Source of the DNA: Thelocarpon superellum
Taxonomy: Eukaryota
Direction of reading: 5' to 3'
Length of the DNA: 35,163 bases
Assembly: GCA_026025795.1 (NCBI GenBank)
Contig: JAPEUG010000013.1
Span: 62,001-97,163, forward strand
Shown: positions 1 through 11,421 of the stretch, piece by piece
Numbering within the stretch: position 1 is the first letter of the stretch
How the letters are laid out: each line of letters starts with the position of its first letter
The notes under the pieces: model-generated
What the model was told of the DNA's origin: nothing
Seen by the model: the letters and a program-made list of their open reading frames with translations, nothing else
The model's database searches: none
Position numbers and translations under genes: made by a program

Positions 1-2224
1 ACACGAAAGAAAGATACTATTGCGCGTGGTGAGCTTATGGAGTCCGCGGCGGTGTGAGGTAAAGAAAACTTACCTTCGCGCGAAGCATCGCCGCCGCGGA
101 CCATCATATACGACGTACTGATACCCCCCTGAGCTCCTCATCAGCGACGGATCCTCAAGGGGCTATAGGAGGCGTGTCTACGTACCTCCGAGAGCATCTT
201 GAGATCCAGAGCATCTTCGGCACCTCCAGGGCCGAGCGGGACCGGTGTGCCGAACAAGACATTACGCTTCTGTGCTTCAGCGATCTGCCGGAACGCGACT
301 CCGCAGAGGCGATCGAGCGCTCGGCTCAGCAGCGCAAGATCCAGGCTGTTCGACTTCGCCGGCAGATCGGCGCTGAAATGTTTCAAGTTCTCCTTGAAGT
401 CGGCCGAGGGAAAGCGACCCCGCTCGTCAAAGGTCTGATCGAGATGGTGCTCGTCGAGCTCGTCGAGGGCGGTAGGGGGGAATATCGCACACAGCTTGCT
501 CTTTGCCATGCCTCCTTGAATGTAATCAAGTATCACGGCGTGCTCGAGAACGGGGTCCTTTTCCGCTGGGTCATCGGCCGATGACGAAGACTCGGCGGCT
601 TGCGTGTCAATCTCGTGCCGCAGCCAGGCGGAGAATGCAGTAAACTGCCCGAGTTCAACGCTCGTGTGCTTTAGGATGGTATGTGCGAGCAGCGCAAGGC
701 AATCCAGTAAATCAAACACCCTGTCAAGATCCTGCGTCGAGAGTCCCAGAGCCTCCTGGGAGGCCTGAAATCGGGAGAGGCCCCGTAGACGGCTAAGGAT
801 TACGCCGCATCGCTCCAAGGCCGGGATGAGATTTTCATGTGTGAGACGACGTAGGTTCTCATAGCATGCCGTGACGGCCTTGTCCCAGCGCTTGTGACCC
901 TACCATGCTCGCGCACCCGTTAGATTCCGAGTCTTCCGCATCCACTTGACACTGTACCCTACCCGTTCCGAGAGTTCGTCCACCAGCCACCGCTTCAGGG
1001 GCGCAAAACAGTAACCTGTGACCACCAAGTGATAGGCGGCAACGTTGAAGTCGCACTGGCATTCCTCTTGCAGGGCTTCAGTGATGTTTCGGAGAAATTT
1101 CGTCGGCAGATCTTGCCCGCTCTTCCACTCCGCCTGCATCGTCTTGACCACTTGGCCGACATAGCGCAAGATGTTCTGGAGCTGCGTCGACTTGGCTGCC
1201 AAGACGGGGAGATAGGGCCCAGACGTGGCAATGAAGCGCAAGTCGAGGGGTAGAAACAGGAGTCGCGATTCCGCCGTGGTCGGCAGCGGGGCAGCGACCA
1301 GCAGAGCATGTGTGGATGAGTCCGCGTATGAGTCATGCAAGACGGGGATCGCCACTCGCAGCCCTGACGATTTGCCCAGGTCCAAGGTGCCAACGTCGAA
1401 CGTGCCAAAGATGCTCAGGTGGATGGAGCTGTCGTCGAAGCAGGCGACGAGGACGTCCACGGCATTGCTCTCGTCCTTGGAGAGGGGATGGAACATGGAG
1501 TCCAGGGATGCTCTCGAGCTAAAGACGTCTTCACTAAGCACCGCATGATCAGCGATCCACCACGGATGTTTGACTGGACCGATCACTTGTCGCTCCGCAC
1601 TCACTCTCGTCCGCCTGCCGGCAGCAAGCTGAGCTTCGGGAGGCAGCTTTCTACATCGACGAGGGCCAGCTCGCGGGGAAGATCGGGCACAAAGCGAGCC
1701 TCGTCATCTGGACTCTCGCGACCCAGAATCTGATCCAAGGCACGCCGGGACCCATCCACCCTGCCGGCCGTATTCTTGCCTCGCGTGAAATTGACCCCCC
1801 AACCCAGACAGGTCAGCGTGCGGCTGGCGCCAACCGAAGTCTCTACCTGCTGGACGACCTTGCCACTGTCGGCATTGATGAGCCGGACGATATTGTCGCT
1901 CCATCCCGCCGCGAGCAATTGGCCTGGATAATGGGTCAGTCTACTGGGCATCGGGCACGACGCCGGGGCAGAGCATGGTGGTCCAGCTAGCATACCATTT
2001 GGCTTCCATCGCAATCGGCGGATGGCGACGGTTTGGCCTTTGTTGCCCAGTCCCAATACCCGCTGTCCATTCAATCGATAGACGTACACCCGTTCTTCGT
2101 CCGTGGCAACGGCCAGGAGGTCCATGGTGGGGCAGTAGGTCATTAGGCCCGGACGGACCGGCTGCTGCACCACCTTCTCAGACAGCTGAGTGAGCATGGC
2201 CAAGCCATCTCCGTCTTCGTCCAT
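1..2224 (-). CDS. APC4: Anaphase-promoting complex subunit 4 (Cut20/Apc4); 3' end lies outside the window
   Basis: N-terminal WD-like segment (YCPTMDLLAVA...VYRLNGQRV...WKPNG.LLAAGWSD) and the long APC4 domain (LKRWLVDELSERGHKRWDKAV...HENLIPALERC...LSRLRGL). Inferred GT-AG introns at 1924-1995, 1534-1604, 900-962, 129-185 and 17-73 join the ORF pieces in frame. Start ATG at 2224 (alternative 2197). Confidence 0.9.
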
Positions 2225-2362
2225 GATGTGACTCGCCACCGAGGGCAGCAATGGCCGAATCGGCCGTCACGATGGTAATATGGTCATGTTGCTATTCCCG
2301 CTGTGCTTCGCCGGACCTCACATGGCTTTTGGCTCCGCTGCGCTCACTGCCTTTCGTGGCGA

Positions 2363-2399
2363 ACGCGTGGCGCGTCGACTAAGCGGCGTCAGTCGACGC
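2363..2399. promoter_or_regulatory. MCB-like (ACGCGT/CGCGT) sites and a 9-bp inverted repeat upstream of APC4
   Basis: ACGCGT at 2363-2368, then CGCGT. GCGTCGACT (2372-2380) and AGTCGACGC (2391-2399) form a perfect inverted repeat about 140-175 bp upstream of the APC4 ATG. Confidence 0.35.
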
Positions 2400-2612
2400 T
2401 CGTATCCGGGCTAGTAGTCACGTGGACGCTGTTGGTTCGTGGTATATCGCGACGCCGCTTTTGAGGCCTCTACTTCTTTGGTATGGACGGCCACAACGTC
2501 ACCCCAGGGTGATGACACTGTTGCATCAAATTGCTAGATGTACGGACGCTACGATGCCTACGCCTTCATACTTGAGCAACAGCAAGACAATTTTTAAGCA
2601 GCGCAAACAGGT

Positions 2613-4419
2613 CTACTCAATGACATACGACTCGGCAACGGATTTAATCTCCTTGGAAAAGGTCACTTCCTCGCTCATCTCAACCAGCGTGACCGACGAT
2701 ACCTACGCCAGTACGATTCTTGTCAGCGCCCTTTCTTCATTCGAGAAGGGGATATTGCGAAACGAGTCCGCACGGGGTTGAATGTTGCACTCACATCTAC
2801 TTCGGCAAAGGGCCTCGTCTTCGAGAACGTGACGTGCATGGGGAAGAAGTCGCTCTCATCTTCGGCCTGTGCCTCGAATTCAAAGGTGCCGCTGGCGTTG
2901 TCAGCGTCGACGACAGGAACACTCCAGTCAAGGCTATCGCCCGAAACCTCGTAAATGGCATCGAAGCTCGACACGGCTGGCTCGCTGGTGGAGAAGGGGA
3001 TGGTGACGACGACGTCCCTAAGCGTGTCGCCGGCACTGCCCAATTCGTACTCGACGGTGATGGTGTAGGAGTCTTCGGCGCCTTTGTTGACCCAGACCGT
3101 GAAGAGAATGGGCAGCACGCTGCTGTCGTCGGCCTTGGCGTTGGTCTTCCATCGCAAGACGCCGACGGAATTGTTGGTGGGGAAGCCCCGCGACGGGTCT
3201 TTGAGCTGAATCACCTTGGACCGCGTGAAGAGCGCCTTGTCCACGTTGGGGTGCGTCTTGAACTGAGCGCTCTCAGCGTCGGCCACAAGATCTAGCTTAA
3301 CCTTGGTGAGGCTGGCGTCGACGATCCGGAGCTGCAAGTCGCCCGTGACCTCAAACGACTTGAGCGATCCATCCCGCGACAGCTTCGCCGAGATCTTCTC
3401 GCCGACGGTGACGTGAATGGCGTCGCGGTCCATGGACGAAGAGACGCGAGCCGAGGGCGCCTTCTCCACCGCCGGCGCCGGTGTGTTGGTCACCAAGCGA
3501 GTTGACTCTTCCGCCTCAGGCCCCAACTCGCCACGTACCCGCTCGAAGAGGTCGGTCGTCTTGGATTTCTTGCCTAGCTGCATGCCTTTGGCTTTGGGCG
3601 CAGAAGATCTAGACATCATATCAGCCTCCAGGCTAGGGTTGGCGGAAGGGGCATGGAGCACGCACCCAAAGGATTTCTTCTTCTCAGCTTCGTAGGCGTC
3701 ATACGTCGAGGGCACCGCGGGTCGAGCGGGAGGTGTGTAAGTGGGGTAGGAGGGGGCACGTGGGGCCGCGCCGCGATTGTTTCGAGACATCTCTTTCCGT
3801 TGTAGCTCCAGTTGCTTGGCTTTCCGCTTCCGCTCCTCGCTGGCTTCTAATTCTTTATTCTGTGGCCACAATGTCAGCACCGGCAATCTCCCATTGCACG
3901 TCCGCAGGGCACCGACCCTCGCGATGATCTCCTGAATGCGCTCCTCATGACTCTCCATCTCCAGGAACACCTTGATCTGGGGGAGGAAGAGGTTTTCTCG
4001 GTATCCCTGTGTGACGAGCTCGTCAAAGGCGCTGAGTAGTTCAAAGGCGTTCTTCAGGATCTCCCGCTCGTCCAAACTCTTGCAGACGCTGGTCACCACC
4101 TGAGCAAAGAGATGGAGCGAGTCGATATCCTGCAGGATGTTGGATTGGCGGTTGGTGATGAGCACCATGTAGAGCTCGTCCAACGGTTGGTAGACATAGC
4201 GTACATTGTCCTGCTCCACCGTCGTATGTTGCGTCCCGGCGTCGGCGAGCTTTGGGAAGGAGGCCAGGAGCGCCTCGATGCGAGTCCGGGCAATTTCACG
4301 AAATTGTCGGGAGAGGACCGCCTTACCACCGCGGGTGCAGATTGACGCAGCGAGCACGACCTGGAGCGCAGGCGTCGGTCAGCAGCGGATCTTACGACGC
4401 AGGTCATGCCACATACCAT
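2613..4419 (-). CDS. RET2: Coatomer subunit delta (delta-COP)
   Basis: MVVLAASICTRGGKAVLSRQF...QHTTVEQDNVRYVYQPLDELY...SNILQDIDSLHLF longin domain plus a C-terminal mu-homology domain (FKTHPNVDK...GVLRW). The first coding exon is ATG only (4417-4419). Introns at 4361-4416, 3860-3916, 3609-3665 and 2703-2794. Ends ...AESYVIE*. Confidence 0.96.
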
Positions 4420-5152
4420 GATGGCAACAGGCCAGCCCAGTTATGGTGCGGGGCCTCTGTGCATCGGCCGCACCCAGCGACAGTCCAAATCAAGAGCTTG
4501 GTCGTAGAATCTGATGGATCCTCTACGGTTGTGTCTCCCCTGTGACAATGTTTCCGGCCTTCGGTGTCGTCCTAATGTTTGATCTGGCGGGTTACTCCGC
4601 TTCCATCGGAGGAATGTGGAATATGTGACAGCAAGAGCATCGCGCACGTGATCTGACATTGGCCAGCGCGATGAGTCTTTGTCCCTGAACCCGAATCCCC
4701 TCTATCCACCCCAGGTTGACCTCTTACTTTCACCATCACGTCTTCACTCCTGCTCAGGCCCATCTCTCTGCCTCATCTTCACAACGCTCTTTGTCACAGA
4801 TCTTCTATCTGTGCCAGCGACCCTTTCCGTCCACGTTATTACAGTTACACGACTTGTCGCCCTCGTCACCTCTGTTACCAATCAATCTCCCGCCTCCTCA
4901 ACAACCCTCACCCCTACACTCGCCCTGACGGACTTTCTAACACAGCTTGCTCTTTTGGCCCCATACTAACCTTAGCTTTTACTCCATGTTCGGTCGACCC
5001 ACAAACACGACGCCTTCTCAACCGGCTCGAAAGTCAGCGGGAGAGCTCTTTGACTGTCACCTTTCCCCCACGAGTGTGCCCGGCCCGTGTCCGCTCGCAC
5101 TTTGCGCCCTAAATCCCACTGTACGCACGTGTCAGAAGTAGATGGAGCATCA
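4420..5152. promoter_or_regulatory. Divergent promoter and 5'UTR region shared by delta-COP and the Rmr1-like gene
   Basis: Head-to-head start codons at 4419 (-) and 5153 (+). C/T-rich tract at ~4690-4985, typical of fungal core promoters and leaders. CACGTG and ATTGG motifs near 4645-4662. Confidence 0.55.
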
Positions 5153-7860
5153 ATGACGTCCCTTCGGCCCTTTGCCACTCCCCTCCTGGAGGTCCAGGCG
5201 GCCGAAGACAGCATGGAGCTCTCGTCAGACATTGATCGCGTCCCAGTGCACGACGATCTGGACCTAGACGTCGACGTCGATGTGGATGCCCTCAGTGAGC
5301 AACTTCTGGATCCAGACGATGACTACATGATCGAGGATGCCCACTCTGCTACCGGCGATGGCGCCCACCTTATGATTGAGGCCGTCAACGACGATGTGAT
5401 GCACGACCAAGACCGCGCATCGCCGGCCATGGACGATGACATCGTGGTCCCTGACGGCGACATTGGTGACGCGGACGATACCACCCAGCATGCCGCATAT
5501 GACACCGACTTTCACGCCTTTGATCTGAACACGGTCCTGGTGGACGAAACCAACGATGTGCCAGCTGATGGGGCCTCCTATCCTGACGGCGGAGAAAACC
5601 ATCTCGGTCTTGCCAATAAACCCGATCCCGACCATTTCCATGCTCTGTCTTCAGTTGCTCCGAAACAAGATCTTACCGAAGGATCTTCCCTCACAGACGT
5701 TCCTGTTCCTCTGCCCGAGCCGCCAGCAAGAGAGGTCGCCGACGTGGAAGCGACGACAGAGAACCACAATGACGGCGCTGCCGGAGATACGGACCCTCTC
5801 TTAGCAGATACAGACGAGCCTCTCCCAACTAATCTGGGAGGCGAGGCGGCCGAAATTGTGGACGTCGACGTTCAGACCGGAGAGCTTCTCGAAACCCATG
5901 GGGAAAACGAAGCGTCTCATCTTCACCCGGTAGTTGTGGCTTATGAAGGTAGCGAGGTTTCGTTGTTTCCGCCCTCCAAGGACGATGCCTCGGATACCTT
6001 CTTCCTCCATGATGAGACCCTAGCCAGCCAGCCTATGGGGGAGTTATTTCATTCGTTACGATCGATCCTTGCCGAGAGCATCAACGAGGATGATGAGCTG
6101 GAAGTCAGCGTAGAGGACCTGGGTGTATTCCTGAGCGAGGTAGAAATCCCTAATCTATTTGCGACTCGACGGATATCTGCTGACGTCTGCACAGGATTCA
6201 CATCACGCACATGTCGTCACGCTTGCGCAGATTCTCGACCTTCATGTCCACCTTGCACGTCTCGATGGAGCGGAACAGCCGGGACCACTGTATATGAGCC
6301 TCACGACACGGATCAGGCTTCCTCGTCGCCTCGAGGACCTCGCGACGGCCGTTAGCGAAGGTAAAGGCCTGTCCCAGTTGGCACTCTGGGGTCGCGAGGT
6401 CACTGCGCACCCGCCCGTGGAAGAGTCTGGCTCTGCTGGCGGCCTGGAACGAACATCTGATGACTCCGCAGCCCACCAAGACGAGCCTATCCCCCCCACC
6501 CAAAGGCATGAGGATCATCCGGAGCCGACGCTGGAAACGGTCTCTCCCGAGCCAAGTCCGCCAGAAGCCTCTGACCTACGGGATCCAGAGGATGCTGAGC
6601 ACCCTTCCGGATTACCTACTATCGACCGCAATACCAGCCTACCACCTACCCTGGCCCCGGAGACACTGGGGTCTATAGCTCCGGATGGGACCTCCCCGCA
6701 TCGGGTCCAAAGCCCGGAGGAGGCGCCGCACGCAGCCAAGGTCCAGACCGAGAGTGCCGAGAATGCCGAGAATGGTGATCTCATTGATTACGAACAGGAC
6801 GAGATCGAGCGTGGAGACGGCGACGGCACCGAGGTCTCGCGTTCGGCCACGACCGACTCCGCCACGTTGCAAGGCGATGAGCTCGGCGACCGCAATGGTA
6901 CAGCACCCGATTTTGTTATACCATGTTTCAAACCCCAAATGTGTTTTTGTGCACGTTGTAACGAGATCATCCTAGCAGAATACGCCGCTCAGAATGAGGC
7001 CGAGTCCCGACGAAGCTCTCTCCGGAGCGCCGCCGGATCGCTGGACAAAGCCTCACCGGCCACGGACGTGACCGGATCGGGCCGTGATCCCGTCGGAGAG
7101 AACCATGACGCCTCGGACGAAGCGAGTGATCCGGCAGACGGTTGGGCGGAGCAGCCGCCCGAGTCAGGCAACGGAGGTTATCCATCCGAGGACGTGTACG
7201 ATCCCTCGTACCCCGTAAATGACGGCGACGGACACGGAGAGCTCGGCGGGGAGGATGAGCCCGGGCTGGAGGATGACTACGATCCGGCCCCCACCGAACT
7301 CGGCAACGACCCTGATGGTCCGGAGATCGCACTTGACGCGCCAGACGAGCTTGACGACGAGGACCCGGCACACGCGATTGATCTGGTCGATGAGGTCTTG
7401 AGGGAAAACGGGACGCTCGATGAGCAGGCACGCGACGATGATCTCGTCGAGGACGAGGAAGCCGTGCTTGACGACGCTGCGGCGGGCGGTCAGGATGATG
7501 TGGATGATGTGGATGATGTGGATGATGAGGGTGATGATCATCCGGATGACGAGCCTCCCCTTGCAGACCCGGACATTTCACATGCGGAGCTAAGTCAGAC
7601 CTTGGTCGACGACTCTGTCGCCGAGTTTGACGACGAGGCTGCATATGATCCGATCGAGCTCTTGGACGCCGAGCTCGATGCTCCATTCTTAGTCGAAGAA
7701 GAAACACATCCGATGAAGCGATCGCGCGACGACGCGGACGGTGTGGTGTCCGAGGCTGATAGTCAAGGTCCGTCCTGTTCCTCTCATGATCCTCTTTATT
7801 AACACAAGTGAGGATGCTAACACGATCATTGCAGACAACAAACGTGCTCGCGCATCGTAA
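5153..7860 (+). CDS. Very acidic, largely disordered protein with a central DUF2420-like domain (Rmr1-like), probably nuclear
   Basis: D/E-rich ORFs joined by introns at 6140-6194 and 7768-7834, with an optional in-frame intron at 6898-6975/6978. The folded core HPVVVAYEGSEVSLFPP...FFLHDETLASQPMGELFHSLRSIL...ELEVSVEDLGVFLSE...TLAQILDLHVHL resembles DUF2420 from memory. The spliced C-terminus KRSR-x15-KRARAS* looks like a bipartite NLS. Confidence 0.72.
7493..7537 (+). repeat. Coding 9-bp tandem repeat (GGATGATGT)n encoding DDV repeats
   Basis: ggatgatgt x3 plus degenerate copies, read directly. Confidence 0.85.
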
Positions 7861-7877
7861 CGACACCAATCATCGTC

Positions 7878-8119
7878 GCGAGCGTGGTCGAGATGACGGC
7901 TCGCCCTATCGCCCTTTGTCGGTCTGGCTCCCGTGAATCCCTCTGGGACGGCCTGACCAGGCCGACTAGCACGACAAGATCACTCCAGCGGTAGCTTCTT
8001 ACCACCGTGGGGATTGATTATGAGCTCAATCAGCCCTCAAGAGAATTGGCATCATCGTGGAGGAAGTGTAAAGTCGGTCTCGCGCGGAGCCGACGGGTAA
8101 GCATTCAGGTCTAAGTGAT
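7878..8119 (+). ncRNA. Candidate structured cis-regulatory RNA in the 3'UTR of the Rmr1-like gene
   Basis: Several adjacent or nested complementary segments (see findings) enclosing a GTAAGC donor at 8097. No recognisable ORF. Confidence 0.45.
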
Positions 8120-9725
8120 GGACGACATTTCCTTCCGCCCTCTCATCACCTGCCTGTGCCCTCCCTCTCCCCATACCCTCTCGCCCCTTCTTTCTTCTTT
8201 TCTTTGCTCCTCATCCCTTTCGTGTGCATTGCTAAGCGTGCCGCTCGTTCGGTGACTCTCCCTGCTTCGCGTCGGAGGCGTCGGCGTCGGCGTGGGTTGC
8301 GCTCCATTGATTGGGTAGCATGGCCGTGGACTGCCGCGGCGTGCGGTCGGAGCTCTTCGCCTTGTATGTTACATGGTTCGGTGCTTGTTAACCGCCACTA
8401 GTAATGGCTCGTAGGAGGTGACATGGGGGGTGATTCACAGTCGGCGGACGCTCTAATGGAGGAAGACTCGGACGCACCATAACTCCATAATTCCATGCAG
8501 ACGTTGATCGTAGCCTTCCAGAATTGTTGAACGGTCCTTCTCCAGGAAGGTGGAGGCGATCTTCGAGATACGAGGCAGGTACTCATGCTCCGTAGACTCG
8601 CATCAGCACGGCTCTTCGGTACTCTTCCTCCCTTCTGTCCGACGCATACGAGCAGTTCAGTAGCCGAAGTCACGGGCTAAAAATACGGCCCCACCGCGGG
8701 CTGCGAGCTGCGAGCTGTCAGGGCATGAAGATTTCTGTGCCCCAGCTCTTAGTTAGCGAAGGTAGCGAACGAGCCAACGTTCCAGAGTGCCAGATTGTGC
8801 TGGTTGCAGAGGGACGCGGCTATGCTGGCAGGTACGAGGCCCTACGTCGGGCCACTTGACCACATCACCCCCCCGTCGCCGCCAAAGCTGCCGCTCAAAA
8901 GTGCGGGCTCGTCCGAAACCACCAGCCTGTAGGCATTGAGAGGTACCAGAAAGAGTATGTGACTCGTCAGCGTTCCGACGCAGAGCTGCAGTCTCAGTCC
9001 CTGCGCCCGTCCGCTCCAAGCCCGGAGCCCTTCTCGTCAGGTAGGGGACGAATAAGACGATCCGACGCAGCACACCAGACGAGGACGAGTACCAGGACGC
9101 AAAACTCCGTATCTGGCTCTCTCCATCTGTGCCCTCCCACTCGCCCTGGTAATCCCATACGAGTACTTCGTACCATACGTCGTCGACCGGCCTACGCCGC
9201 GCTTGCGCCGACAGGGGCGCCATCGTGAATATCGGTACCTCCCGCTCCGGTCCATCAGCCTCAACGCCCGCCACACCCCTTGCCACGGGCGAAATTCCCT
9301 CGGCCCGGTCCGCTCTCTATCTCTCTCGCGCGGGTGCGCTACCTCGTGCGCTCCATCCTCTCCCTTTCGAGCGGTGATCGCGCGCAACTCTGGCTTCGCT
9401 GCGTCGGTTCCCGATGATTCGACGATAACGTGTCATGTTCGAATCCCCCACGCCACATCCTCACCGTCGCCATCGAAATCTTCTCGTGCCGTCTCATAAC
9501 TGCCCACGTTGGTGGTCTTGACTCCTCCACGACCTACCCTCCGATCGTAACCCCCAATCGCAACGCGCTTTGGTGGTTCCCCCGCGGTCGACGGCGTACT
9601 GCGAGCCCCTCGTCGCATCTGGGGCCCGATCGTGGCGCACGCCTCGATCCTCTGTCAGCCGCGGCTCGCCGCGCTGACTTCCTCTCCCCTTTCTCCTCCA
9701 AGACGCTTGGTCCTACGAGATCAAG

Positions 9726-11421
9726 ATGGTGGAAGATAAGTACGTGATGGGAATGCCCGGCGCCGAGCTCCGGGCCTGCGTCGTGGGTGCGGTAGGCTGA
9801 CCGCCTGCTTTGCAGATACATTGGGCTGGCCCTGGCCATCATGTCCACCATGGCCATTGGTGAGTGTCAGTTCCTCGTCATGTGAGGCATCACTAACCGG
9901 CCCCGCTAGGCACGAGTTTCGTCATCACCAAAAAGGTCCGTCTTCACGGCGCTTTGGCCGTTGATTGTGCTCTCGCCTCGTCCTGGACCGGAGGAACGCC
10001 GCTAACGAGGTGGGGTGCAGGGGTTGATGGAAGCAAGTGAACGACTTGGCTTTGAGGGGGAGGGTCACGCCTATCTACGAAGTCCCATCTGGTGGGGTGG
10101 GATCATCACCTGTACGTAGCCGCGGCAGGCCCGATGGGCAGGCCCGATGGGCATGGGGCCGGGACCTTGACTGACGTGCGTGGTAGTGATCGTGGGCGAG
10201 GTGGCCAACTTTGCCGCCTATGCCTTTGCGCCAGCCATTCTCGTCACCCCTCTAGGGGCGCTGAGTGTGTTGATTGGGTTCGTAGCCTCGTCGGTCTCCT
10301 CTTGTCCTTGCGCGCCCCACTAACGTCGAGCAGAGCCGTCTTGGGGGCATACTTCCTCAAAGAAGAACTTGGGACGCTGGGGAAACTGGGGTGCGCCATG
10401 TGCTTGATCGGCTCGGTCATCATCGTGCTGCACGCCCCACCGGATAAAGAGATCCAGACCGTGGACGAGATTCTCCACTACGCCATCCGATTCCGTGAGT
10501 GCGAAAAGGTCTCCCTGACGAGTGCTATGGCGAGCTGACGGGAGAATTTGTAGCCTTCCTGCTCTACTGTCTGGTGGTCACCGTCTTCGCAGTCGTCATG
10601 ATTTACCACATTGCGCCCCGATACGGCCGGACCAACCCGCTCATCTACATCTCCATCTGCTCCACCGTGGGCTCCGTCTCGGTGATGTCAGTCAAGGCCT
10701 TTGGCATCGCGCTGAAGTTGACCCTGGCGGGCAACAACCAATTCAGCCATCCGTCGACCTATGTCTTTGTCATCGTTGTCGTCGTCTGCATTCTGACCCA
10801 GATGAATTACTTCAACAAGGCGCTGAGCCAATTCTCCACGTCCCTGTAAGCTCCTTCCCTCGTCTTGCCTGTGGTGTTGAGCCGCGGCCCGGACTGACGA
10901 CTGACCACGCGCGGTGCAGGGTCAATCCTTTGTATTATGTCACCTTTACCACGGCCACCCTCTGCGCATCTTTCATCCTCTTCAGTGGCTTTAACACCAC
11001 CGACGCCGTCAGCATCATCTCCCTGCTCAGCGGCTTTCTCGTCATCTTCACTGGGGTCTACCTGTTGAATTTGTCGCGGGGTGACCCCGATGGCCACACG
11101 TTGTTGAATGGGGATGGTCCGGACGGAGTGCCGACGGACGGCATCGCGGGCATTCAAACGCGGCGCAGCATGCAGGCGCGGCGAAGCTCCATCGAGAATC
11201 ACCGGCGCGGCTCGGGGAGCGTGTCATATGGGCGGGGCGACCGGGAGGGACTGATCCACGCCTACGACGAGGAGAATGGTGCCTTTGGCTTGACCGATCT
11301 TGCAGAAGAGAGCGATGACGCCGCCGACGTTAAGCCCCATGGAAACGGCGACAGTAGCAAAGGCTACCCCCAGGAGAATGGTACCCACCTGACGCCACCC
11401 CTCAGATCGCCAAACCGATAG
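9726..11421 (+). CDS. NIPA/DUF803 family magnesium transporter
   Basis: Spliced protein [30 protein letters not shown]...[10 protein letters not shown]...[28 protein letters not shown]...[10 protein letters not shown]...[11 protein letters not shown]. Introns at 9740-9815, 9860-9909, 9936-10020, 10112-10186, 10278-10333, 10495-10553 and 10846-10919. Confidence 0.94.

What the first reader, a model, noticed from the sequence alone, without database searches (positions are those of the whole stretch)
7878..8119. Densely structured 3'UTR RNA element enclosing a 5' splice site, downstream of the Rmr1-like gene
Seen: starting 18 nt after the stop codon, much of ~240 nt can pair. The helices are GCGAGC 7878-83/GCTCGC 7899-904; GTCGGTCTGG 7918-27/CCAGGCCGAC 7957-66 with inner CCG..TCCC/GGGACGG; ATCACT 7979-84/AGTGAT 8114-19 as a long-range closing helix; (CT)CCA 7983-87/TGG(AG) 8058-62; GGTAG 7990-94/TTACC 7999-8003; GGG-GATTGA 8009-17/TCAATC-AG-CCC 8026-36; and GTCGG-T-CTC 8073-81/GAG-CCGAC 8087-94. 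A canonical donor GG|GTAAGC (8097) sits just after the last hairpin, inside the closing helix, and a pyrimidine tract follows the element. Established: fungal TPP riboswitches (Neurospora NMT1) and the plant THIC 3'UTR riboswitch act by exposing or hiding 5' splice sites. Inference: this is a multi-junction RNA that gates 3'UTR splicing and mRNA stability through a ligand or protein. I see no TPP, RNase P/MRP, telomerase or ribozyme consensus in it.
Basis: partly seen in the sequence, partly recalled or inferred. Interest (0 to 1): 0.8.

Follow-up and report, generated by a model that had tools for sequence, protein, structure and literature searches.

The report
Conserved splice donor, no structured RNA
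The proposed riboswitch-like RNA fold downstream of this fungal gene is no better than chance, but the splice-donor motif inside it recurs at the same place in distant relatives and probably marks an intron in the gene's 3' untranslated region.

Summary
All 7 listed helices, the stop 18 nt upstream, GG|GTAAGC at 8097 and the pyrimidine tract are present.

The structure is not more than chance:
- The + strand folds to -81.8 kcal/mol against -84.8 for shuffles (z +0.64; 148 of 200 shuffles fold as well).
- Helix counts equal those of shuffles.
- Rfam gives nothing.
- Nine orthologous loci show no sequence or structure match, and none of the eight with enough 3' flank folds unusually well.

One part survives. 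A consensus 5' splice site followed by an AG-poor pyrimidine tract lies 237-329 nt after the stop in 6 of 7 independent lineages of this DUF2420/Rmr1-like gene (scan P about 7.5e-5). None of 25 control ORF ends has both features.

The likeliest reading is a conserved 3'UTR intron, which is the kind of signal that triggers EJC-dependent nonsense-mediated decay in Neurospora. No RNA data were available, so splicing itself is inferred. A ligand-sensing multi-junction RNA is not supported.

The parts
5154..7860 (+). DUF2420/Rmr1-like gene. Coding exons are 5154-6139, 6195-7767 and 7835-7860, with stop TAA at 7858-7860. The last intron, 7768-7834, precedes an 8-codon terminal exon (DNKRARAS).
   Evidence: The sequence was read. 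The spliced product equals P0003, named by its source as a MAG protein of Thelocarpon superellum, except for one extra predicted intron. Pfam PF10336 scores 52.8 bits against a cut-off of 23. The C-terminal S-KRS...SQ-x-KRxRS motif is conserved in 10 aligned relatives.
7878..8119 (+). It is the proximal 3' flank, probably 3'UTR, and has no structure beyond chance.
   Evidence: thermodynamics and helix counts; Rfam, 0 hits; no counterpart in orthologous loci.
8068..8073 (+). A weaker second donor-like GT motif 29 nt upstream of the main one. Tandem donor-like motifs are also seen in L001, L002, L006/L008, L007 and L009.
   Evidence: Read from the sequence. It was not tested statistically. A near-identical strain carries A>G at 8071 inside it.
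8097..8102 (+). GTAAGC, a consensus 5' splice site 237 nt after the stop. This is the positionally conserved feature.
   Evidence: GT[AG]AG[TC] occurs once per 1372 nt per strand in all held sequence. It lies at +237 to +329 in 6 of 7 independent lineages. Monte Carlo scan P=7.5e-5.
8116..8234 (+). An AG-free, pyrimidine-rich tract directly after the donor. It is 78-88% C+T depending on the bounds chosen.
   Evidence: The same jump in pyrimidine content is seen in 7 of 7 lineages, from 0.44-0.50 in the 100 nt before the donor to 0.63-0.81 at +20..+120 after it.
8307..8318 (+). Candidate branch-like TTGAT and the first YAG (TAG) after the AG-free tract. Together with the donor they give a candidate intron 8097-8318 of 222 nt. 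This is inferred, not shown.
   Evidence: The acceptor is weak evidence: no CTRAY motif lies between 8120 and 8452, and the candidate acceptors in other lineages are not alignable.
9727..11421 (+). Downstream neighbour, a NIPA-type magnesium transporter gene. Its ATG is at 9727 and its first intron is 9742-9815. It has its own CT-rich tract just upstream of the ATG.
   Evidence: The sequence was read. Pfam PF05653 scores 107 and 45.7 bits. The gene lies in the same order and orientation in L002, L003, L004 and L009.

Best explanation
The 242 nt are ordinary 3' flanking sequence, probably 3'UTR, of a DUF2420/Rmr1-like gene of a GC-rich lichen-associated ascomycete. The helices are the pairings that any sequence of this length and composition offers. 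They do not form a conserved or unusually stable fold.

The real feature is smaller and simpler. It is a consensus 5' splice site (GTAAGC, 8097) followed by about 120 nt of AG-free pyrimidine-rich sequence. This is the usual layout of the 5' part of a fungal intron. The pair of signals sits 237-329 nt after the stop codon in distant orthologues, whichever gene lies downstream.

Most likely it is the start of a spliceosomal intron inside the 3'UTR; the candidate in the window is 8097-8318. Splicing would leave an exon junction well downstream of the stop codon. In Neurospora such a junction recruits the UPF factors through the exon junction complex and sends the mRNA to nonsense-mediated decay. 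The element would therefore lower or tune the level of this mRNA, or allow control by intron retention, with no ligand-sensing RNA needed.

Shown: there is no excess structure, and the donor plus tract is conserved in position. Inferred: the transcript reaches the donor, the donor is spliced, the acceptor position, and the link to NMD.
For: No excess structure:
- z is +0.64, and 148 of 200 shuffles fold as well.
- Helix counts equal those of shuffles.
- The element is unremarkable among 92 window-strands.
- Rfam gives 0 hits in the whole window at gathering score, 0 hits at E<=10 in 7600-8700 and 0 in the 9 loci.
- The covariance model finds only itself.
- Donor-anchored folds in eight orthologous loci give z from -1.22 to +1.08.

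Donor conserved in position:
- Nine orthologous loci were retrieved. They form 7 independent lineages with >=600 nt of flank, counting the window and merging the close pairs L003/L004 and L006/L008. L005 has only 253 nt of flank and was left out.
- Exact GT[AG]AG[TC] lies at +237 (window), +280 (L002), +298/+313 (L001), +325 (L003), +262 (L006) and +329 (L009). L007 has none exact, but has GTGAGA at +302.
- The background rate is 1 per 1372 nt.
- A scan statistic over 1300-nt flanks gives P=7.5e-5. A binomial test gives 1.1e-6 for +230..335 and 3.4e-4 for +150..450.
- Pyrimidine content jumps after the donor in 7 of 7 lineages.

Specific to this gene:
- 8 of 9 last long ORFs of the Rmr1-like gene have a donor plus a tract of >=63% pyrimidine.
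- Of 25 other long-ORF ends (23 other ORFs and 2 first exons of the same gene), 3 have a donor motif and 0 have both features.

Tied to this gene and not to the neighbour:
- The downstream gene is NIPA in the window, L002, L003/4 and L009.
- It is a different ORF in L001, and no ORF follows in L006/8 or L007.
- The NIPA ATG is 1.6 kb away and has its own CT-rich leader.

Constraint in the L006/L008 pair:
- The two 50-column blocks holding the donor are 45/50 and 46/50 identical, as high as the last coding block (45/50).
- A block with an acceptor-like TTTTTACAG about 170 nt further on is 45/50 identical.
- Their neighbouring blocks are 30-41/50 identical.

Literature (passages seen):
Against: - There is no RNA evidence at all. 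It is not shown that the transcript extends to 8097 or that the site is spliced.
- No canonical CTRAY branch site with a YAG lies at a typical short distance in most lineages. Candidate acceptors are weak and not alignable between lineages.
- L007 lacks the exact motif, and L005 could not be scored.
- The interval +237..+329 was noticed before it was tested. The scan statistic and the wide-interval binomial test allow for this, but only 7 lineages are available.
- I placed the stop codons of the loci myself, from the conserved C-terminal motif.
- The control set uses ends of long ORFs, not verified stop codons.
- A pyrimidine-rich stretch on the sense strand is also typical of fungal promoter and leader regions, as seen before both ATGs in this window. 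The tract could therefore belong to another transcript.
Confidence: 0.5

Rival explanations
1. A multi-junction structured RNA in the 3'UTR binds a ligand or protein and thereby exposes or hides the 5' splice site, as TPP riboswitches do in fungal NMT1 and plant THIC.
For: The listed helices exist. A conserved donor does sit at the 3' edge of the stretch.
Against: - It folds no better than shuffles.
- The proposed structure is 8.6 kcal/mol above the best fold.
- Helix counts are at chance level.
- There is no Rfam hit, TPP included, at E<=10.
- There is no sequence or covariance-model match in 9 orthologous loci.
- The flanks of the eight orthologous loci that could be folded do not fold unusually well, and the donor is not consistently paired: its pairing probability ranges from 0.26 to 0.92.
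- The two differences seen in a near-identical strain (8018, 8071) fall in unpaired positions of the proposed structure, so they test nothing.
Confidence: 0.04
2. The donor is the end of the first exon of a separate transcript that starts just after the Rmr1-like gene. This would be a non-coding RNA, a gene made of micro-exons, or a distal leader exon of the downstream gene.
For: - CT-rich sense-strand tracts also precede the ATGs of both flanking genes.
- L006 and L008 stay about 60-90% identical for about 1 kb beyond the stop.
- Tandem donor-like motifs and short ATG-plus-donor strings occur in several lineages.
Against: - No conserved coding segment lies between the stop and the NIPA start in any comparison (tblastn of all ORFs >=12 aa).
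- 0 of 11 ORFs of >=83 aa between 8072 and 9866 have a Pfam match at E<=0.1.
- No Rfam family is found in the window or the loci.
- The feature keeps its distance from the Rmr1-like stop codon while the downstream neighbour changes.
- NIPA has its own leader 1.6 kb away.
Confidence: 0.2
3. The motif pair is a 3'-end or termination signal that is bound but not spliced. For example, a U1-type or GUAA-binding factor site plus a pyrimidine-rich downstream element would set where this gene's transcript ends.
For: - The distance from the stop (237-329 nt) is in the range of a fungal 3'UTR length (recalled, not tested).
- No convincing acceptor is conserved.
- No AATAAA-type motif lies between the stop and 8800. 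The only TGTA-type motifs are at 8067 and 8363.
Against: - It is not a general property of gene ends here: 0 of 25 control ORF ends show both features.
- The motif matches the full six-base splice-donor consensus, not just a four-base core, in 6 of 7 lineages.
- The L006/L008 pair also conserves an acceptor-like block about 170 nt downstream.
Confidence: 0.12
4. There is nothing functional here. The donor motif and the tract are coincidences in ordinary intergenic DNA.
For: Only 7 lineages were available. The motif is short. The interval was noticed before it was tested.
Against: - The scan statistic gives P=7.5e-5, and the wide-interval binomial test gives 3.4e-4.
- Both features occur together in 8 of 9 Rmr1-like ORF ends and in 0 of 25 controls.
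- There is a local conservation peak in L006/L008.
Confidence: 0.08

Closest known systems
3'UTR introns that make fungal mRNAs targets of EJC-dependent nonsense-mediated decay. This was described for Neurospora crassa by Zhang and Sachs 2015, which I saw only as cited in a passage of PMC7746235. The paper itself is not held.
   Same: A splice donor lies well downstream of the stop codon, at 237-329 nt. A spliced junction there would fit the signal described for Neurospora.
   Different: Neither splicing nor NMD sensitivity is shown here. The host gene is a DUF2420/Rmr1-like gene. My searches for 'DUF2420' (0 papers) and for 'YGL250W'/'RMR1' (listing only) turned up nothing about its untranslated regions.
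Ordinary spliceosomal introns of filamentous ascomycetes. The Fusarium consensus is from PMC5677156, passages seen.
   Same: The 5' splice site matches the GTAAGY consensus. A pyrimidine tract follows directly after the donor, where 83% of Fusarium tracts lie. The candidate length of 222 nt is within the reported 42-529 nt.
   Different: No CTRAY branch motif lies in the expected place in the window; there is only a TTGAT 8 nt before the first YAG. The pyrimidine tract of about 90-120 nt is far longer than the 6-25 nt reported for Fusarium. The location is a UTR, not coding sequence.
TPP riboswitches that control splice-site use (fungal NMT1, plant THIC 3'UTR).
   Same: A 5' splice site lies in an untranslated region of an mRNA.
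   Different: There is no match to the TPP model or to any other Rfam model at E<=10, no stable or conserved fold, and no aptamer-like conserved sequence in orthologues.

Membership tests
TPP riboswitch or any other curated RNA family (Rfam 15) | Match to the family covariance model | tested here: not met
   0 matches at gathering score in the whole window. 0 matches at E<=10 in 7600-8700 on both strands. 0 matches in the 9 orthologous loci.
Structured cis-regulatory RNA (riboswitch-like), in general | A fold more stable than composition-matched shuffles | tested here: not met
z is +0.64, and 148 of 200 shuffles fold at least as well. Helix counts are at the shuffle level.
Structured cis-regulatory RNA (riboswitch-like), in general | Sequence and structure conserved, with covariation, in orthologous positions | tested here: not met
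   No blastn or nhmmer similarity. The covariance model of 7979-8119 finds only itself. With filters off it gives only chance-level hits, the best at E 0.094 inside a coding region. Folds of eight orthologous loci give z from -1.22 to +1.08. Covariation proper could not be counted, because the flanks cannot be aligned.
Fungal spliceosomal intron | 5' splice site consensus GTRAGY | tested here: met
   GTAAGC at 8097. The same class of motif lies at +237..+329 in 6 of 7 lineages.
Fungal spliceosomal intron | [quoted passage not shown] | tested here: met
   Positions 8128-8215 are 88% pyrimidine, and the AG-free run covers 8116-8234. The same jump is seen in 7 of 7 lineages. The expected layout is from PMC5677156.
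Fungal spliceosomal intron | Branch site (CTRAY) followed by a YAG acceptor | tested here: inconclusive
   The window has only TTGAT at 8307 with TAG ending at 8318. Candidates in other lineages lie 96-740 nt away and cannot be aligned. L006/L008 conserve a TTTTTACAG block about 170 nt after the donor.
Fungal spliceosomal intron | A spliced junction seen in RNA | not testable with these tools
   No run on record as RNA was listed for this sequence. The tool for fetching contigs that encode a given protein is closed.
NMD-targeting 3'UTR intron (Neurospora type) | mRNA level depends on UPF and EJC factors and on the intron | not testable with these tools
   This needs mutants or reporters. Only the position downstream of the stop is known.
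DUF2420 / Rmr1-like protein (the upstream gene) | Pfam PF10336 above its gathering score | tested here: met
   The spliced protein P0003 scores 52.8 bits against a cut-off of 23. The two exon ORFs taken alone score 20.3 and 17.4 bits, because an intron splits the domain.

The most novel reading that the evidence does not exclude
The donor and pyrimidine tract may be an ancient, deliberately kept regulatory switch of a meiotic-recombination-related gene. It would be either a 3'UTR intron whose removal or retention is controlled by developmental stage, or a donor used for spliceosome-mediated cleavage without exon ligation. It would set when the Rmr1-like mRNA is stable. It would have been held at the same distance from the stop across classes of filamentous ascomycetes while all surrounding sequence turned over.
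Probability: 0.12. Interest if true: 0.6.

Novelty: new member of a known kind. Interest (0 to 1): 0.3.

Why it matters
The riboswitch-like claim would have been a rare find, since only the TPP class is established in eukaryotes. It does not hold, and showing that saves follow-up effort.

What remains is more modest. UTR introns are usually poorly conserved. One that keeps its place after the stop codon between lineages as far apart as this Thelocarpon-like fungus and a Cenococcum-like dothideomycete would be a clear case of selection on a 3'UTR splice signal. It would also give a testable handle on how a little-studied gene family (DUF2420/Rmr1) is regulated after transcription.

Tried and rejected
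- Own genome: none is held for this window.
- Sequencing runs: no RNA holder is listed, so expression, transcript ends and junctions could not be examined.
- Laying contigs of four runs at 80% likeness:
  - One metagenome run holds a near-identical strain. Its contig over 7947-8130 has 2 differences, at 8018 and 8071.
  - One other run holds a single identical piece over coding sequence, 6978-7128.
  - The two runs from the source's own study gave only 34-43-nt low-complexity matches.
  - There were no joints, so no comparative value.
- Protein word search with exon 2 found only the gene's own record (1 hit among 7995 scored candidates).
- The first metagenome scan with the single protein found none of 483 candidates confirmed.
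- A 37-sequence alignment was too diverse to give search patterns. A 10-sequence alignment worked and gave 9 loci.
- All-against-all short-word blastn of the 800-nt flanks gave only 10-15-nt matches at E>=0.07. The one that is collinear and next to the donor is a 12-mer shared by L007 and L009.
- The minus strand folds at z -1.94. I considered an antisense RNA and dropped it. The value is the 7th lowest of 92 window-strands, and nothing else points to that strand.
- I considered a telomerase-RNA-type 3' end made by spliceosomal cleavage. I dropped it because an RNA ending at 8097 would have to overlap the coding region. This rests on recalled lengths and was not tested.
- I considered a hidden small gene. 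0 of 11 ORFs had Pfam hits, and no conserved peptide was found.
- Zhang and Sachs 2015 could not be read because it is not held. Its supplements, which may list genes with 3'UTR introns, were therefore not seen.

Full report
**What is there.** The window comes from a GC-rich filamentous ascomycete.
- The gene upstream of the finding runs 5154-7860 on the + strand. Its introns are at 6140-6194 and 7768-7834, and its stop TAA is at 7858-7860.
- Its spliced product equals P0003 apart from one extra predicted intron. The source names P0003 as a MAG protein of Thelocarpon superellum.
- P0003 carries Pfam DUF2420 at 52.8 bits against a cut-off of 23. The family has 558 relatives at E<=0.001 in the representative library, the nearest at 38% identity.
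- The next gene downstream is a NIPA-type magnesium transporter. Its ATG is at 9727 and it has its own CT-rich leader.

**The observation.**
- The element starts 18 nt after the stop, and GG|GTAAGC has its GT at 8097.
- A pyrimidine tract follows: 8128-8215 is 88% C+T, and no AG occurs between 8114 and 8235.

So the description of the letters is correct.

**Is it more than chance? No.**
- The + strand folds to -81.8 kcal/mol, while 200 dinucleotide shuffles average -84.8 (z +0.64). 148 of the 200 shuffles fold at least as well.
That is 8.6 kcal/mol worse than the best fold.
- The 242 nt offer 125 possible helices of >=5 bp, against 130+-10 in 300 shuffles. For >=6 bp it is 53 vs 47.5; for >=8 bp, 6 vs 6.4; for >=10 bp, 2 vs 0.84, and 22% of shuffles have two or more. 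A reader choosing by eye among about 130 candidate helices will always find a plausible multi-junction drawing.
- Local 10-bp stems occur 72 times in the window.
- I scanned 46 adjacent 242-nt windows on both strands, 92 folds with 30 shuffles each, covering positions 134-11265. The z-scores have mean 0.02 and sd 1.07. The element scores +0.33 on the + strand and -1.62 on the - strand, the 7th lowest of 92. The tool's 200-shuffle value for the minus strand is -1.94, which is not an outlier in that context.
- Rfam gives no match in the whole window at gathering score and none at E<=10 in 7600-8700.

**Relatives.** Fungal genomes are not among the searchable collections, and no genome is held for the window.
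- A metagenome scan with a 10-protein alignment returned nine loci that encode orthologues. L003/L004 and L006/L008 are close pairs.
- L003/L004 match a protein cluster whose named members are Cenococcum geophilum proteins.
- I placed the stop codons from the conserved C-terminal motif and the conserved last intron.
- The window's 3' flank has no blastn hit better than E=2 and no nhmmer hit at E<=10 in these loci.
- With filters off over all 84,878 bases it gives 12 hits, all at E>=0.094. Only one, at E 2.4 in L007, lies near the equivalent place.
- Donor-anchored 242-nt stretches of the eight orthologous loci that have enough 3' flank (L005 has too little) fold with z between -1.22 and +1.08. 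The donor's pairing probability ranges from 0.26 to 0.92.

The third, where transcripts end, could not be run.

**What survives.** Reading the orthologous flanks side by side showed a recurring pair of signals: a consensus splice donor GT[AG]AG[TC], followed by a pyrimidine-rich stretch.
- There are seven independent lineages with at least 600 nt of flank. L005 has only 253 nt and was left out.
- The exact motif lies at +237 (window), +262 (L006), +280 (L002), +298 and +313 (L001), +325 (L003) and +329 (L009). L007 has only a relaxed form at +302.
- The motif occurs once per 1372 nt per strand in all held sequence.
- Placing each lineage's hits at random in 1300-nt flanks gives six lineages inside one 93-nt window in 15 of 200,000 trials, P=7.5e-5. 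A binomial test for the wide interval +150..450 gives 3.4e-4.
- In all seven lineages the pyrimidine fraction rises from 0.44-0.50 in the 100 nt before the donor to 0.63-0.81 at +20..+120 after it. AG-free runs there are 65-184 nt long.

The feature is not a general property of gene ends. Of 34 long-ORF ends in the window and loci, 8 of the 9 that belong to the last long ORF of the Rmr1-like gene have a donor plus a tract of >=63% pyrimidine. Of the other 25 (23 other ORFs and 2 first exons of the same gene), 3 have a donor motif and none has both. This is a crude control, because ORF ends are not verified stops.

The feature follows this gene and not its neighbour. NIPA lies downstream in the window, L002, L003/4 and L009. 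A different ORF follows in L001, and none follows in L006/8 or L007.

In the L006/L008 pair, the two 50-column blocks holding the donor are 45/50 and 46/50 identical, equal to the last coding block. A block about 170 nt further on with an acceptor-like string is 45/50 identical. The neighbouring blocks are 30-41/50 identical.

**Mechanism.** A strong donor followed directly by a pyrimidine tract is the normal layout of the 5' part of an ascomycete intron. In Fusarium the consensus is AAG|GTAAGT, 83% of pyrimidine tracts lie between the donor and the branch site, and introns are 42-529 nt long (PMC5677156, passages seen).

The simplest reading is an intron in the 3'UTR of the Rmr1-like gene. 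In the window the first YAG after the AG-free tract ends at 8318 and has a TTGAT just before it, which gives a candidate intron 8097-8318. This acceptor is weak evidence, and no canonical CTRAY branch site is present.

A junction 237-329 nt past the stop is the kind of signal that sends transcripts to nonsense-mediated decay in Neurospora through the exon junction complex (passage of PMC7746235 citing Zhang and Sachs 2015; the cited paper is not held). I therefore propose that the element tunes the mRNA level by splicing-dependent decay or by intron retention.

Shown: the conserved position of the donor and the tract. Inferred: that the transcript reaches the donor, that it is spliced, where the acceptor lies, and the NMD consequence.

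**Rivals.**
- A separate transcript starting just after the gene is possible, because CT-rich tracts also mark leaders in this window. But no conserved coding segment, Pfam match (0 of 11 ORFs) or Rfam match supports one.
- A non-spliced 3'-end signal is possible, given the weak acceptors.
- Chance is unlikely, given.

**Verdict.** The finding as titled, a densely structured RNA enclosing a splice site, is not a real structured element. The splice donor inside it is probably real and conserved. That makes this a likely new example of a known kind of element, a 3'UTR intron. It is of modest interest until RNA data are available.

Noticed in passing
window 6899-6976 (+): The public gene model (P0003) removes these 26 in-frame codons as an intron. 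They encode a cysteine motif (P-C-x-x-P-x-x-C-F-C-x-x-C-N) that is also present in the relatives P0004, P0007 and P0008. The stretch is therefore probably coding and the predicted intron is probably wrong.
   Followed up: partly
window 5154-11421; L002, L003, L004, L009: The order and orientation, Rmr1-like gene followed by NIPA-type transporter, is kept in four other loci whose Rmr1-like proteins are only 26-34% identical to the window's. The spacer between the two genes is 1.3-1.95 kb long and has no conserved coding sequence.
   Followed up: partly
window 7768-7834; L002, L003, L004, L006, L007, L008, L009: The last coding intron splits a codon just before a terminal micro-exon of about 8 codons that ends in KRxRS. 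It is present in the window and in seven loci, and absent from L001 and L005, whose reading frames run straight through.
   Followed up: partly
window 376-617 (-): This is the most negative fold z-score of the 92 window-strands scanned: -3.53 with 30 shuffles, MFE -82.7 against -68.7. It was not examined further.
   Followed up: no
window 8018 and 8071: A metagenome run holds a near-identical strain with T>C at 8018 and A>G at 8071 (one contig, depth 3.6). Position 8071 lies in the weaker upstream donor-like motif.
   Followed up: partly
L006 about 7303-7345 and L008, the equivalent place: Just upstream of the conserved donor, L006 has a compact intron-like unit of 43 nt (GTAGGG ... TACTGAC ... 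ACAG). About 170 nt downstream of the donor, an acceptor-like string abuts another donor-like GTTAAGT. Both blocks are highly conserved between L006 and L008, which suggests more than one splicing event in that lineage's 3' region.
   Followed up: no
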